This document shows positions 3,276 through 13,555 of a stretch of 17,603 nt of DNA, piece after piece. The stretch is from positions 36,151 to 53,753 of the forward strand of contig CAZWPQ010000010.1 in assembly GCA_964636085.1 (NCBI GenBank), written 5' to 3'. Every line of letters starts with the position of its first letter. Positions within the stretch are counted from its first letter, which is position 1. The translations under genes and the position numbers were made by a program. The stretch is from an uncultured Nitrososphaerota archaeon (GTDB taxonomy: Archaea > Asgardarchaeota > Njordarchaeia > Njordarchaeales > Panguiarchaeaceae). The notes below the pieces were generated by a model that saw nothing but the letters and a program-made list of their open reading frames with translations, was not told the origin of the DNA and made no database searches.

Positions 3276-3381
3276 TGGGGGCTTGCATGAAGTTGTAGTC
3301 GAATCAGCTTGCCAGAAACGATGTGTGAGTTTGTTAAAAATATATGATTTTTTAGCGGATTACTATAGTACGATATTGATA

Positions 3382-3435
3382 TCGATGATGATTAAACAGT
3401 CGACTGATCTGTGATGACCGCTGGAACTGCTGAGA
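3382..3435 (+). ncRNA. Archaeal C/D-box sRNA (2'-O-methylation guide)
   Basis: Box C ATGATGA (3385-3391), 12-nt guide TTAAACAGTCGA, box D' CTGA (3404-3407), TCT, box C' GTGATGA (3411-3417), 12-nt guide CCGCTGGAACTG, box D CTGA (3430-3433), and a short TC/GA terminal stem. All four boxes are perfect with canonical spacing, in an intergenic gap. Confidence 0.92.
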
Positions 3436-10895: not shown

Positions 10896-12521
10896 TTATT
10901 TTTTGTTTCTTAGACAGCTCTTCACGAATTCAATGAAGAGTGGGTGGGGGGATAAAGGCCTGGATTTATACTCAGGGTGATATTGTACCCCAATGAAGAA
11001 GGGATGGTCTTTTATTTCGATAGCCGCAACTCTATTCATATCGTCAGTGGCACTAATTATAAGCCCTTTAGTCATCATTTTTTCGACGTAATGTCGTATG
11101 ATATGATATCTGTGTCTAAACCTTTCGCGTGTTTTTGTTGTTCCGTAGATTTTATGTAGTTTTGTATTTGGCACAATATTGATTTCAAGGCCTCCAAGTC
11201 TCATGGTTCCGCCTAGAGTGGCGACATCTTTTTGTTCTGGTAGGAGATCCACTACGGGGTAATCGGTTTTTGGATCTATTTCGGTAGTGTTGGCTGTTTT
11301 CCATCCCATAAATTCTCTAGCGAAAGCGACAACACCAAGTTGTGCTCCAAAGCAGATTCCAAGTAATGGGATTTTGTTATGTAGGGAAAATATTGCCGCC
11401 TGTATCATCCCATCTGTTCCTCTTTCCCCAAATCCTGGGGTTAGGATAATACCATTATAACTCGAAAGTGTTTGAACGTTGATGTTCTCAGAATCAATGA
11501 TTTCTATGGAAGGTTTTATATTTAATTCGGCTGATGCATGTTTTATGGCCTCAATTATGGAGAAATATGTATCCATCATCCTCGTGTATTTTCCAACAAG
11601 TCCAACTCTAATTTTATAAGAAGCATTCTTTAGTCTGGATATGAAGTCTCGCCACTTCTTTAACAAATCTTCGGGCCTTTTCCTGGGCGATAGCCCAAAT
11701 CTCCTGAGTATTATCCTATGAATGCCCTGCTCGTAGAGTAATAATAGTGTCTCGTACGGGGTCTCTAAATTGGGTACCTCAAAGATAGCCTCAGGGGGGA
11801 CATTTGAGTAAAGTGAGAGCTTATTTTTAGCTTGTGGAGATATACCCTCGATCTCAGTTCTTGCAATGATGGAGTCTATTACGAGCCCAGACTCTAAAAG
11901 AAACCTGAAACTTTGTTGGGCTGGTTTTGTCTTATATTCGCCTAAGATCCCAATAAATGGTACCCATACAACATGGATAAGAAGAGTGTCGTTAGGCGAG
12001 AGTTCATTTCTAAGTTGCCTAATTGCCTCAAGGAATATGGCTGCTTCGTAGTCCCCAACTGTTCCACCAACTTCGATTATTGTTATGTCATAATTCTTGG
12101 CAATATCGATTATTCTTTTTTTAATTTCATGCGTAACATGCGGAATTAATTGGACAGTCTTTCCTAAGAATTCTCCCTTTCTCTCCTTTAATATAACTGA
12201 TAGATATATCTGGCCACTTGTAATATTATGTGAAGGATGAAGATCTCTATGTATAAATCTCTCATAGATTCCAAGATCCTGATCAACCTCACAGATTCTG
12301 TATGTGTAGTCATCAACAGGCTTAAATTCCCAAATCTCATCAAGAACGAATACCTCGCCATGTTCATGCGGGTTAAATAAACCAGCATCAATATTGAGAT
12401 AGGGATCAATCTTTGCAATAGTAATATCGAACCCATAGGCTTGAAGTATACCAGCAATGCTACCAGCAATTGTACCTTTGCCTAAACCTGAGAGAGACCC
12501 AGTTATAAAAATTATTTTCAA
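10896..12521 (-). CDS. pyrG: CTP synthase
   Basis: ITG.LSGLGKG, KIDPYLNIDAG, HGEVFV, EVGGTVGD, KTKP.Q, GICFG (catalytic Cys), ERFRHRY and QYHPE motifs. TTG 12521 with a GGTGA SD is preferred over the track's GTG 12530. Confidence 0.97.
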   Translation of the reverse strand: MKIIFITGSLSGLGKGTIAGSIAGILQAYGFDITIAKIDPYLNIDAGLFNPHEHGEVFVLDEIWEFKPVDDYTYRICEVDQDLGIYERFIHRDLHPSHNITSGQIYLSVILKERKGEFLGKTVQLIPHVTHEIKKRIIDIAKNYDITIIEVGGTVGDYEAAIFLEAIRQLRNELSPNDTLLIHVVWVPFIGILGEYKTKPAQQSFRFLLESGLVIDSIIARTEIEGISPQAKNKLSLYSNVPPEAIFEVPNLETPYETLLLLYEQGIHRIILRRFGLSPRKRPEDLLKKWRDFISRLKNASYKIRVGLVGKYTRMMDTYFSIIEAIKHASAELNIKPSIEIIDSENINVQTLSSYNGIILTPGFGERGTDGMIQAAIFSLHNKIPLLGICFGAQLGVVAFAREFMGWKTANTTEIDPKTDYPVVDLLPEQKDVATLGGTMRLGGLEINIVPNTKLHKIYGTTKTRERFRHRYHIIRHYVEKMMTKGLIISATDDMNRVAAIEIKDHPFFIGVQYHPEYKSRPLSPHPLFIEFVKSCLRNKK

Positions 12522-12567
12522 ACAAATCACCTAAATAAAACAATCTAGGATAACTTCGGGATCCAAA

Positions 12568-12793
12568 ATACTAAGGGCCCCAGAACCATACCTACCCTCC
12601 CCTTCAACCAGTCTCCCCCTAGAGCACCGTGAGCTCGCTTAGCGCCGCTCCCTTCCGGGCCCGCACGCGTTCGCGCGCCCATAAATGGGCGGTCGGCACC
12701 CACCGTCCTTCGACGGTGAGAGCCATGACAACCCACGGCCCCTAGGGACTGGTCTTCATTGGGTCGAGTAGGCGGTTCTGGGGCTTTCCTCAT
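12568..12793 (-). other. Bulge-helix-bulge splice motif formed by the SRP RNA flanks
   Basis: The 5' strand AU-GAGG-AAA-GCCCCAGAACC (12793-12774) pairs with the 3' strand GGUUCUGGGGC-CCUU-AGU-AU (12587-12568). This gives a 4-bp central helix with a 3-nt bulge on the 3' side of each strand. Confidence 0.65.
12571..12785 (-). ncRNA. ffs: Signal recognition particle (7S) RNA, ~215 nt, atypical
   Basis: GC-rich island in AT-rich DNA. The minus strand has helix 8 GGGCCC-GGAA-GGGAGC with a GAAC/UAA internal loop (12636-12675) and helix 6 CUCACCGUC-GAAG-GACGGUGGG with a GNAR tetraloop (12692-12729). A long helix 5 is formed by CCGUGGGUU/AGCUCACGG, GACCAGUC/GACUGGUU, GCCUACUC/GGGUAGGU and GCCCCAGAACC/GGUUCUGGGGC. 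Confidence 0.88.
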
Positions 12794-12887
12794 AAATATG
12801 CTTACTGATGAAAAAAGTATAATGCTATTTATTTTTTATTTGTTGTTCATTGATATTTTTGGATATTATTGTCTAGTGGGGAGTTCT

Positions 12888-13406
12888 ATGCCTACATACG
12901 ACGATCATGAGATTAAGGCAAGATTGAGTAAGGCATATAAACCAGTCTTTGATATACTTAAGAAGCTCGTGATGTCTGCTGAGGAAATCTTAACTGAATT
13001 TAAGTCTGATGGCCTAGACAGAGAAACTGTCTCTACATTTATGGCAGACCTATCAGAATTGGAGGGGATATATGATGAGTTCTTAGTTACTGTAGAGGAG
13101 GTATCTCAAGGATTGGAATACGAATCACGAATAGCCAAGGAGATCTTGAATTCCTTTAGAAAGTTGAAGGAGATGTTTGGCGATATAAGGATTCAGGCAG
13201 AAAATTTGTTGGGATTCATAAAACCGGGCCTGGTTCAGCCTAATGAGTTACTTAGTAGCATAATAGTACAACTTAATGACTTAATAAAGAAGCTCAGAAC
13301 AATCATAAGTGAAGAACTAAAGTATAATGTCGAAAGACTGCTTGAAGAACAGAGACAAGTAGAACATCTATTCCCAGACGAGAGAGCCTTAGAGGATCAA
13401 CTCTGA
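12888..13406 (+). CDS. Hypothetical all-alpha acidic protein (172 aa)
   Basis: ATG 12888 is preceded by a GGGGAG SD. The protein is made of amphipathic helices and is followed by a T-tract. The track's start at 12759 runs into the SRP RNA and is unlikely. Confidence 0.7.
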   Translation: MPTYDDHEIKARLSKAYKPVFDILKKLVMSAEEILTEFKSDGLDRETVSTFMADLSELEGIYDEFLVTVEEVSQGLEYESRIAKEILNSFRKLKEMFGDIRIQAENLLGFIKPGLVQPNELLSSIIVQLNDLIKKLRTIISEELKYNVERLLEEQRQVEHLFPDERALEDQL

Positions 13407-13470: not shown

Positions 13471-13555
13471 GCGCCGGTAGTCTAGCGGTAGGATGCCAGC
13501 CTGCCAAGGCATTCGTAGAAAGCTGGTGACGCGGGTTCGAGTCCCGCCCGGCGCA
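13471..13555 (+). tRNA. tRNA-Gly(GCC) with a 14-nt intron at 37/38 (13507-13520); CCA not encoded
   Basis: Acceptor stem GCGCCGG/CCGGCGC plus discriminator A; anticodon stem CCAGC/GCTGG; anticodon GCC at 13503-13505; T-arm GCGGG-TTCGAGT-CCCGC. The intron AGGCATTCGTAGAA forms a BHB (CUGC/GUAG helix, bulges CAA and AAA). The gene is followed by TCA. Confidence 0.96.

What the first reader, a model, noticed from the sequence alone, without database searches (positions are those of the whole stretch)
12568..12793. SRP RNA termini form a BHB motif: predicted intron-like excision and circularisation
Seen: beyond the 11-bp terminal helix, the ends continue as an AAA bulge (12785-12787), a 4-bp GAGG:CCUU helix, an AGU bulge (12570-12572) and a 2-bp AU:AU helix. 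Both 3-nt bulges lie 3' of the central helix, the same geometry as the tRNA-Gly intron 0.7 kb away. Known: the splicing endonuclease EndA cuts after the 2nd nt of each bulge and RtcB ligates the products; BHB-dependent SRP RNA circularisation has been described in Thermoproteus, where the gene is permuted. Inference: a 215-nt circle (12571-12785) with junction ...GGGGCCCUUAG|AGCCCCAG.... Here it would be a non-permuted, Alu-less circular SRP RNA, possibly end-protected for thermostability. Caveat: the outer helix is only 2 bp.
Basis: partly seen in the sequence, partly recalled or inferred. Interest (0 to 1): 0.85.

Follow-up and report, generated by a model that had tools for sequence, protein, structure and literature searches.

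The report
Alu-less SRP RNA with splice-type ends
A heat-loving Asgard (Njord-group) archaeon has an unusually short SRP RNA, the RNA core of the protein-export particle, whose two ends carry the cut signal of the tRNA-splicing enzyme, so it is probably cut out and sealed into a 215-base ring, though no RNA data could be checked.

Summary
On the minus strand (12794-12569) lies the genome's only detectable SRP RNA. It has the S domain only, and the whole Alu domain is missing. Its ends form GAGG:CCUU, an AAA bulge and an AGU bulge, the same geometry as the tRNA-Gly intron nearby. This is not chance. In 11 of the 12 genomes of the order with an SRP RNA hit, plus 4 metagenome contigs, the 4-bp helix always pairs and shows compensatory changes. 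The 5' bulge is nearly always AAA. The 3' bulge always starts with A, and a closing pair follows after exactly 3 nt in 12 of 15. The motif sits at the ends of both the Alu-less and the full-length (340-360 nt) forms. Another Asgard family carries a full canonical motif with an 11-bp covarying outer stem. The genome encodes a two-subunit splicing endonuclease and RtcB, and 27 of its 44 tRNA genes have introns. No RNA reads exist for this organism, so the circle remains a well-supported prediction. It is a new variant of the Thermoproteus circular SRP RNA: unpermuted, Alu-less and in Asgard archaea. This scan has already noted the same thing on other DNA, in a Njord congener and in Heimdall-group genomes.

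The parts
12571..12785 (-). Predicted mature SRP RNA (215 nt; a circle if ligated). It holds the S domain with helices 5, 6 and 8 and has no Alu domain.
   Evidence: Rfam RF01857 alignment; cut sites derived from the BHB rule, checked on tRNA-Gly; fold z-score -8.45; 79 consensus pairs, 27 with compensatory changes, in 9 relatives
12788..12791 (-). 5' strand of the central 4-bp BHB helix (GAGG), released with the leader after cleavage
   Evidence: Pairs with CCUU; paired in 100% of 15 related loci, with A:U<->G:C exchanges at positions 2 and 3; slid controls 37-80%
12785..12787 (-). 5' bulge AAA; predicted cut between 12786 and 12785
   Evidence: AAA in 13 of 15 loci of the order, AGA and AAU once each; left unpaired in the MFE and consensus folds
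12773..12784 (-). 5' strand of the terminal (truncated helix 5) stem, the inner helix of the BHB
   Evidence: 12 bp with 12577-12588
12577..12588 (-). 3' strand of the terminal stem
12573..12576 (-). 3' strand of the central helix (CCUU); it would become part of a 7-nt closing loop CCUUAGA in the circle
12570..12572 (-). 3' bulge AGU; predicted cut between 12571 and 12570
   Evidence: First nt is A in 15 of 15 loci. A closing pair follows after exactly 3 nt in 12 of 15, against 5-7 of 15 for other bulge lengths. The composition matches the 3'-site bulges of this genome's tRNA introns.
12792..12793 (-). 5' strand of the minimal outer helix (AU)
   Evidence: Pairs with 12569-12568; only 2 bp and not formed in the MFE fold
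12565..12569 (-). 3' strand of the outer helix (AU, 12569-12568), running into a U4 tract (12568-12565) that may act as a terminator
   Evidence: Sequence; the terminator role is inferred
12814..12841 (-). AT-rich region with TATA-like boxes (AUAAAUAG, AUUAUAC) that would place the start 0-11 nt upstream of GAGG
   Evidence: Read by eye against 14 related upstream regions anchored on the central helix; not tested
12708..12711 (-). Helix 6 GNAR tetraloop (GAAG)
   Evidence: Rfam alignment
12653..12656 (-). Helix 8 GNAR tetraloop (GGAA)
   Evidence: Rfam alignment
13471..13555 (+). tRNA-Gly(GCC) with a 14-nt BHB intron (13507-13520), the in-window reference substrate of the same enzyme
10896..12521 (-). 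pyrG (CTP synthase), starting 48 nt downstream of the SRP RNA 3' bulge on the same strand
   Evidence: the same tandem order occurs in 6 of 8 genus-level loci

Best explanation
The gene is transcribed as a precursor with a very short leader and trailer. These pair into a relaxed bulge-helix-bulge motif on top of the truncated helix 5. The two-subunit tRNA-splicing endonuclease cuts after the second nucleotide of each 3-nt bulge (between 12786/12785 and 12571/12570). RtcB then joins the 2',3'-cyclic phosphate to the 5'-OH, giving a covalently closed 215-nt SRP RNA made of the S domain alone, in which a 7-nt loop (CCUUAGA) caps helix 5. SRP19 and SRP54 bind helices 6 and 8 as usual. Shown here: the motif, its conservation and covariation, the absence of the Alu domain, and the presence of the enzymes and of many other BHB substrates in the genome. 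Inferred: cleavage, ligation, and that the circle is the working form.
For: (1) Geometry verified and identical to the neighbouring tRNA-Gly intron. (2) 11 of the 12 genomes of the order with an SRP RNA hit, plus 4 metagenome contigs, carry the motif. The central helix pairs in 60 of 60 cells, with compensatory A:U<->G:C changes at two positions. The 5' bulge is AAA in 13 of 15 and the 3' bulge starts with A in 15 of 15. A closing pair follows after exactly 3 nt in 12 of 15, against 5-7 of 15 for other spacings. An unbiased consensus fold recovers the helix and the bulge. (3) The motif follows the termini, not the structure. It caps truncated helix 5 in the 212-215-nt forms and helix 1 in the 339-358-nt forms of sister families, so it is not a leftover of helix 5. 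(4) In another Asgard family (f7, 13 of 14 genomes) and in f25, the SRP RNA lies inside a canonical hBHBh' with a 10-12-bp outer stem. In 9 f7 genomes, 100% of 162 cells pair, 7 pairs have changes on both sides, and slid controls give 14-46%. (5) The genome has EndA alpha (209 aa, both Pfam domains) plus a beta-like subunit (188 aa, Sen15/EndA fold), RtcB, SRP19 and SRP54. Of its 44 tRNA genes, 27 have introns, and their 3'-site bulges (AAA, AGA, AUA) match the SRP bulges. (6) Several relatives have no U-tract within 50 nt of the 3' end, so they need 3' processing anyway. (7) Precedent: T. tenax SRP RNA is cut at a leader/trailer BHB by a heterotetrameric endonuclease and is circular (PMC4731332).
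Against: No RNA evidence of any kind: no RNA run holds the sequence. The outer helix is only 2 bp here and 0-5 bp across the order, and the MFE fold does not form the second bulge. The 3' cut therefore depends on the relaxed specificity assumed for two-subunit enzymes. One congener (G001) has a deviant outer part, and one genome of the order (G007) shows no motif. Covariation of the central helix alone would also fit an uncut linear RNA. The transcription start is only predicted by eye.
Confidence: 0.63

Rival explanations
1. The endonuclease uses the motif only to make defined ends. The mature SRP RNA is linear, either never ligated or a transient circle that is reopened, as happens with 16S rRNA.
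For: The same comparative evidence supports cleavage but says nothing about ligation. Circular pre-rRNAs are reopened in many archaea (PMC12918454).
Against: After the 5' cut the GAGG strand leaves with the leader, so CCUUAG would be a loose 3' tail beside the 5' end. That is an ideal RtcB substrate. Known BHB-excised products (tRNA introns, pre-rRNAs, Thermoproteus SRP RNA) are circularised (PMC4731332). No second processing signal is visible.
Confidence: 0.2
2. The primary transcript is not cut. GAGG:CCUU plus the AAA bulge is simply a terminal clamp of a linear, short SRP RNA that starts at GAGG and ends at the U-tract.
For: The MFE fold shows just this. TATA-like boxes are compatible with a start at GAGG. 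In this locus the U4 tract follows directly.
Against: It does not explain why the same 4-bp/3-nt motif caps a different helix in full-length relatives. It also leaves unexplained the invariant A and the closing pair after exactly 3 nt in an otherwise unalignable trailer, the lack of a nearby U-tract in relatives, and the long outer stems around the same motif in family f7.
Confidence: 0.1
3. An extension of the best explanation, not an exclusive rival. The SRP RNA is excised as a true intron from a longer transcript that runs on into pyrG, and the short leader is spliced to the pyrG 5' UTR.
For: pyrG starts 48 nt downstream on the same strand with no clear room for its own TATA box. The tandem SRP RNA-pyrG order is kept in 6 of 8 genus-level loci.
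Against: A U4 tract follows the motif directly. Two congeners (G002, G003) have pyrG elsewhere. Relatives with longer spacers have TATA-like boxes before pyrG. There are no RNA data.
Confidence: 0.2
4. The motif is a chance pairing of AT-rich flanks.
For: The outer helix is only 2 bp, and loose scans find many spurious 'BHBs'.
Against: See: conservation, compensatory changes, and offset and shuffle controls.
Confidence: 0.02

Closest known systems
Permuted circular SRP RNA of Thermoproteus tenax / T. uzoniensis (Plagens et al. 2015, PMC4731332)
   Same: A short leader and trailer form a BHB. A heterotetramer-type endonuclease and RtcB are the proposed machinery, and the product is a closed SRP RNA without free helix-1 ends. 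The host genome is rich in tRNA introns.
   Different: There the gene is permuted, the junction lies in helix 8, the RNA keeps an Alu domain (309 nt), and circularisation is needed to restore the fold. Here the gene is in normal order, the junction caps helix 5, the Alu domain is absent, and the host is an Asgard archaeon. The Thermoproteus circle and its cleavage were shown experimentally; this one is not.
BHB processing stems of archaeal 16S/23S pre-rRNA (circular pre-rRNA)
   Same: A stable RNA is excised from its flanks at a BHB and its ends are joined. Family f7 SRP loci have an rRNA-like long outer stem.
   Different: The outer helix here is minimal, and no later reopening step is apparent.
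Archaeal tRNA introns (for example tRNA-Gly 13471-13555 in this window)
   Same: Identical 3-4-3 geometry, A-rich bulges and the same predicted enzyme.
   Different: In tRNA the excised piece is discarded and the flanks are the product. Here the excised piece is the product.
Eroded small-domain SRP RNAs of Desulfurococcales and bacterial 4.5S RNA (Zwieb & Bhuiyan 2010, PMC2905702)
   Same: Reduction or loss of the Alu (small) domain while the S domain stays.
   Different: Here the loss is complete, occurs in an Asgard genus, and is combined with BHB ends.
Low-level circular isoforms of SRP RNA in Sulfolobus, Halobacterium/Haloferax and Thermococcus (PMC3326292, PMC12558985, bioRxiv 10.64898/2026.03.23.713588)
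   Same: Circular junctions within or around unpermuted SRP RNA genes.
   Different: Those are segments or minor species with no BHB reported. Here a dedicated, conserved BHB frames the whole RNA.

Membership tests
Archaeal SRP RNA (Rfam RF01857) | S domain: helix 5, helix 6 and helix 8 with GNAR tetraloops and the SRP54-binding region | tested here: met
   Model positions about 83-297 aligned, GAAG and GGAA loops present; 27 covarying pairs in relatives
Archaeal SRP RNA (Rfam RF01857) | Score at or above the curated gathering threshold (96.5 bits) | tested here: not met
   66 bits, E 3e-14; the shortfall comes from the deleted Alu part
Archaeal SRP RNA (Rfam RF01857) | Alu (small) domain, helices 2-4, and helix 1 | tested here: not met
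   About 70 model positions deleted at the 5' end; no separate Alu piece found in the genome at E<=1 (genome 83% complete)
Archaeal SRP RNA (Rfam RF01857) | Partner proteins SRP19 and SRP54 encoded | tested here: met
Bulge-helix-bulge substrate of the archaeal splicing endonuclease | Central helix of exactly 4 bp | tested here: met
   GAGG:CCUU; 60 of 60 cells paired in 15 loci, with compensatory changes
Bulge-helix-bulge substrate of the archaeal splicing endonuclease | Two 3-nt bulges on opposite strands, each 3' of its strand of the central helix | tested here: met
   The AAA bulge is clear in all folds. The AGU bulge is defined only by a 2-bp outer helix, but 3-nt spacing to a closing pair holds in 12 of 15 relatives.
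Bulge-helix-bulge substrate of the archaeal splicing endonuclease | Flanking helices on both sides (strict hBHBh') | tested here: inconclusive
   Inner helix 12 bp; outer helix 2 bp (0-5 bp in the order). This fits only the relaxed form, 'at least one bulge', quoted in PMC4731332.
Bulge-helix-bulge substrate of the archaeal splicing endonuclease | Cleavage by the endonuclease at both bulges | not testable with these tools
   Needs an enzyme assay or RNA ends
Bulge-helix-bulge substrate of the archaeal splicing endonuclease | Endonuclease of the broad-specificity (two-subunit) type in the genome | tested here: met
   Alpha 209 aa (PF01974+PF02778) and a beta-like 188 aa protein (weak PF01974, Sen15, matching the structural half of A. 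fulgidus EndA). Subunit stoichiometry is inferred.
BHB-dependent circular SRP RNA (Thermoproteus type) | Permuted gene order | tested here: not met
   Collinear with the Rfam model
BHB-dependent circular SRP RNA (Thermoproteus type) | Leader and trailer form the BHB at the future junction | tested here: met
BHB-dependent circular SRP RNA (Thermoproteus type) | Junction-spanning RNA reads / circular RNA | not testable with these tools
   No RNA run holds the sequence; the runs that were laid are DNA contigs
BHB-dependent circular SRP RNA (Thermoproteus type) | RtcB ligase present | tested here: met
   494-aa ORF, 563.6 bits to PF01139

The most novel reading that the evidence does not exclude
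Closed-ring SRP RNA made by the tRNA-splicing machinery is the normal state in several Asgard lineages (Njord-group order, family f7, f25). In this genus the ring has in addition shed the whole Alu domain and sits as a true BHB intron in the leader of the pyrG mRNA, so one promoter yields both the SRP RNA and a spliced CTP-synthase message.
Probability: 0.15. Interest if true: 0.85.

Novelty: new variant of a known kind. Interest (0 to 1): 0.62.

Why it matters
SRP RNA is one of the few universal RNAs. The only published BHB-made circular SRP RNA found in the library searched is the permuted gene of two Thermoproteus species. Here an unpermuted SRP RNA gene carries the same signal in Asgard archaea, the closest prokaryotic relatives of eukaryotes, and the signal is kept across a whole order and at least two further families. 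This suggests that the splicing endonuclease and RtcB routinely mature stable RNAs in these organisms. It also explains why Rfam-based annotation misses the gene at the curated threshold. Finally, it shows that an archaeon can do without the Alu domain, which means an SRP without the part that in eukaryotes slows translation. The prediction is simple to test with one junction-spanning RT-PCR.

Tried and rejected
(1) RNA evidence: no RNA holder listed for window 12540-12830. The four runs laid are DNA contigs of vent, marine and sediment metagenomes, broken inside the GC-rich gene, with no joints. This says nothing for or against expression or circularity.
(2) rRNA processing stems of the same genome as a control: no 16S or 23S is assembled in this MAG.
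(3) A loose BHB scan (inner helix of at least 3-5 bp, +/-25-40 nt) gives spurious hits in most loci. Only hits at the Rfam boundaries with long helices or conserved sequence were accepted, and offset and shuffle controls were added.
(4) The short SRP RNAs of family f12 (236-239 nt) looked BHB-like (GGAA/UUUU), but they end in a stem plus U-run, an ordinary terminator. They are not counted.
(5) K-turn reading of the 3-nt bulge: rejected, because no tandem G.A pairs follow either bulge (sequence).
(6) The count of structure pairs on the genus alignment A1 was not used, because MAFFT puts three rows one column out of register at the 5' end. An anchored table was computed instead.
(7) A separate Alu-domain gene (split SRP RNA): nothing at E<=1 in the genome. 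The 83% completeness leaves a small doubt.
(8) Literature: no paper in the library links Asgard SRP RNA to a BHB.

Full report
WHAT IS THERE. The G+C-rich island (63% G+C in flanks of about 33%) at 12569-12794 is an RNA gene on the minus strand. Rfam's archaeal SRP RNA model matches it at 66 bits (E 3e-14), below the curated 96.5 bits. The alignment runs through helices 5, 6 and 8, with GNAR loops GAAG at 12711-12708 and GGAA at 12656-12653. About 70 model positions of the 5' Alu domain are deleted. It is the only SRP RNA hit in the 2.4-Mb, 83%-complete genome, which also encodes SRP54 and SRP19. The precursor folds far better than shuffles (-135.7 kcal/mol, z -8.45).

THE ORGANISM. Contigs of genus-mates have the same lengths as GenBank records named 'Candidatus Njordarchaeota archaeon' (B13_G17, GB_136), and one is labelled 'Crenarchaeota archaeon JZ-1.bin_83'. 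NCBI places that phylum in Promethearchaeati, the Asgard archaea. The only runs holding the stretch are hydrothermal-vent metagenomes.

THE OBSERVATION. Read 5' to 3' on the minus strand, the ends are AU / GAGG / AAA / GCCCCAGAACCG ... Both bulges lie 3' of their strand of the 4-bp helix.
- The tRNA-Gly(GCC) gene at 13471-13555 has the same layout: anticodon stem, CUGC, CAA, 7 nt, GUAG, AAA, anticodon stem.
- Cutting after the second bulge nucleotide removes 13507-13520 and leaves a correct C-U-G-C-C-A-A anticodon loop. The cutting rule therefore checks out inside this window.
- Applied to the SRP RNA, it gives 12785..12571, which is 215 nt.
- The MFE fold forms UGAGG:CCUUA and the AAA bulge but not the AGU bulge or the AU:AU helix.

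IS IT MORE THAN CHANCE? I collected the SRP RNA loci of all 14 genomes of the same order. I added four further short-form loci from metagenome contigs (L127, L128, L129, L137) and 77 further loci across 23 other families of the phylum.

In the order, 12 genomes have a hit and 11 show the motif. One of these is deviant: G001, with an AGA bulge and an irregular outer part. G007 has none. Across the 15 loci anchored on the motif:
- The central helix pairs in all 60 cells. The variants are GAGG:CCUU, AAGG:CCUU, GGAG:CUCU, GGAG:CUCC, GGGG:CUCU, GGGG:CCCU and GGGG:CCCC.
- Positions 2 and 3 switch between A:U and G:C by changes on both sides.
- The 5' bulge is AAA in 13, AGA in 1 and AAU in 1.
- The 3' bulge begins with A in 15 of 15, against a trailer A frequency of 0.35.

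Sliding the 3' partner by 1-3 nt drops pairing to 37-80%. If the 3' bulge is taken as exactly 3 nt, 12 of 15 loci have a closing base pair. Assumed lengths of 0, 1, 2, 4, 5 or 6 nt give 5-7 of 15, and the chance level is 0.40. Rows are related, so these figures are not probabilities, but leaders and trailers are otherwise unalignable between families.

An RNAalifold consensus on nine short forms, made without any hint, predicts three of the four central pairs, the 3-nt bulge and the terminal helix. Across 90 loci with a terminal helix of at least 6 bp, the geometry '3-nt bulge on the 5' strand, none on the 3' strand, then 4 bp' is the commonest of 63 geometries tried, at 12 loci in 5 families. 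Shuffled flanks give a mean of 2.3.

THE ARGUMENT THAT SEPARATES A PROCESSING SIGNAL FROM A STRUCTURAL LEFTOVER.
- The sister families f2 and f3 have full-length SRP RNAs (predicted excised length 339-358 nt) with an Alu domain. The same motif sits at their ends, capping helix 1 (for example GGAG aaa GUCCGUCCC ... GGGGCGGAC CUCU aaa). In the own genus it caps a truncated helix 5. The motif goes with the termini, whatever helix they close.
- In family f7, 13 of 14 genomes examined have the SRP RNA inside a textbook hBHBh' with an 11-12-bp outer stem, and so does the one f25 genome, with a 10-bp stem. On nine f7 genomes of two genera, all 162 cells of 18 pairs are standard pairs. Seven pairs changed on both sides, and slid controls give 14-46%. 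A leader-trailer stem outside the conserved RNA is the hallmark of a processing stem.
- Three f20 genomes and two f9 genomes have a possible relaxed motif. The other families examined have none that is convincing.

THE MACHINERY. The genome encodes two EndA-fold proteins. One is 209 aa with both Pfam EndA domains (93.9 and 46.9 bits). The other is a 188-aa divergent paralogue that matches Sen15 and the structural repeat of A. fulgidus EndA. This is the two-subunit arrangement that PMC4731332 describes as having the most relaxed BHB recognition. RtcB is present at 563.6 bits.

Of 44 tRNA genes, 27 have introns by ARAGORN, and 15 show a strict hBHBh' in my scan. Their 3'-site bulges are AAA (5), AGA (4), AUA (3), AAG, CCA and CAA. 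This is the same flavour as the SRP bulges.

TRANSCRIPT ENDS (inferred). TATA-like boxes lie 26-38 nt upstream of the central helix in nearly all 15 loci. That places the start from 0 to about 11 nt upstream of it, so the GAGG strand should be transcribed and leaders are very short (by eye). Downstream, this locus has a U4 tract right after the motif. G004/L137, G009 and G012 have no U-tract for tens of nucleotides, so a 3' processing step is needed there.

MECHANISM PROPOSED. The precursor folds, and the endonuclease cuts in both bulges. The 6-nt-plus leader fragment carrying GAGG leaves. RtcB then joins G12571 to A12785. The product is a 215-nt ring in which CCUUAGA forms a 7-nt loop on a 12-bp stem.

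A ring has no ends to fray or to be attacked by exonucleases. That fits a thermophile, but family f7 has only 50% G+C in its SRP RNA, so heat is not the whole story. Loss of helix 1 and of the Alu domain is easier to tolerate once the ends are covalently closed; this last point is inference.

WHAT REMAINS OPEN. No RNA run holds this sequence, and the laid runs are DNA contigs. Cleavage, ligation and the share of circular molecules are therefore untested. I put about 0.9 on the motif being a real processing signal, about 0.75 on a circle being formed, and 0.63 on the circle being the main working form.

RIVALS.
- Cleavage without lasting ligation: 0.2.
- An uncut linear RNA with a terminal clamp: 0.1.
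- Chance: 0.02.
- A compatible extension is that the RNA is excised from a transcript that continues into pyrG. That gene starts 48 nt downstream on the same strand, with no obvious room for its own promoter. The SRP RNA-pyrG order is kept in 6 of 8 genus-level loci.

COMPARISON WITH WHAT IS KNOWN.
- The closest case is the permuted circular SRP RNA of Thermoproteus (PMC4731332). It uses the same machinery and also has a short leader/trailer BHB. However, the gene is permuted, the junction lies in helix 8 and the Alu domain is retained.
- Circular segments or minor circular isoforms of unpermuted SRP RNAs were seen in Sulfolobus, Halobacterium/Haloferax and Thermococcus, with no BHB reported in the passages read (PMC3326292, PMC12558985, bioRxiv 10.64898/2026.03.23.713588).
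- Erosion of the small domain is known in Desulfurococcales (PMC2905702).
- I found no paper in the library on BHB-framed SRP RNA in Asgard archaea.

EARLIER NOTES OF THIS SCAN. These are AI notes and count as leads, not evidence. They report the same Alu-less, BHB-ended RNA in another Njord-group genome. They also report BHB-framed SRP RNAs of 302-304 nt in Heimdall-group genomes, two of them claiming junction reads in environmental RNA. The sizes match my family f7. I verified the f7 motif and its covariation, but not the RNA reads or the group name.

VERDICT. This is a new variant of a known kind.

Noticed in passing
window 10896-12521 (-); loci L128, L129, L137/L142, L078, L058: pyrG (CTP synthase) follows the SRP RNA on the same strand, 48 nt away here and about 50-115 nt away in five other genus-level loci. 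Two congeners (L134, L105) have pyrG elsewhere. Co-transcription is possible.
   Followed up: partly
window 3381-3435 (+): C/D box sRNA matching Rfam sR20 above its gathering score (47.4 vs 44 bits).
   Followed up: no
whole genome G000: 27 of 44 tRNA genes carry introns by ARAGORN, several at non-canonical positions. That is a very intron-rich tRNA set for an Asgard MAG.
   Followed up: partly
L182-L184 (G069, G079, G096) and G113, G131, G134; L201 (G090): Other Asgard families (f12 genus g32, 236-239 nt; f24, 191 nt) also give Alu-less SRP RNA hits. The f12 ones end in a stem plus U-run, not a BHB. Loss of the Alu domain seems to have happened more than once.
   Followed up: partly
L130-L133, L135, L136, L138-L141, L143, L144 (metagenome contigs): In another archaeal lineage a full-length SRP RNA starts directly after the 3' end of a tRNA gene (...CCGCCA|ACGCCUGUGCUAGG...). 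This suggests a tRNA-SRP RNA dicistron processed by tRNA end-maturation enzymes.
   Followed up: no
L030/L036 (G007, same order, family f4): A G+C-rich, short (about 170-230 nt) SRP RNA hit without a recognisable BHB, in a 0.9-Mb, 77%-complete genome. Its ends are unclear.
   Followed up: partly
window 12545-12793 (-) and 12759-13406 (+): Mechanical ORFs (82 aa and 215 aa) overlap the SRP RNA gene. Gene callers may annotate a spurious protein here. The real divergent gene probably starts at ATG 12889.
   Followed up: no
run X1 and X3 contigs laid on 12571-12794: Contig ends that run on into the G002-like and L127-like flanks show that several congeners with their own SRP RNA variants occur in related vent and marine samples (X1 also holds this organism's own sequence).
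   Followed up: no
L204 (G105, family f25): Full-length SRP RNA inside a canonical BHB with a 10-bp outer stem (GGGC uac UACGC ... GCGUA GCCU aga). This is a third Asgard lineage with the feature.
   Followed up: partly
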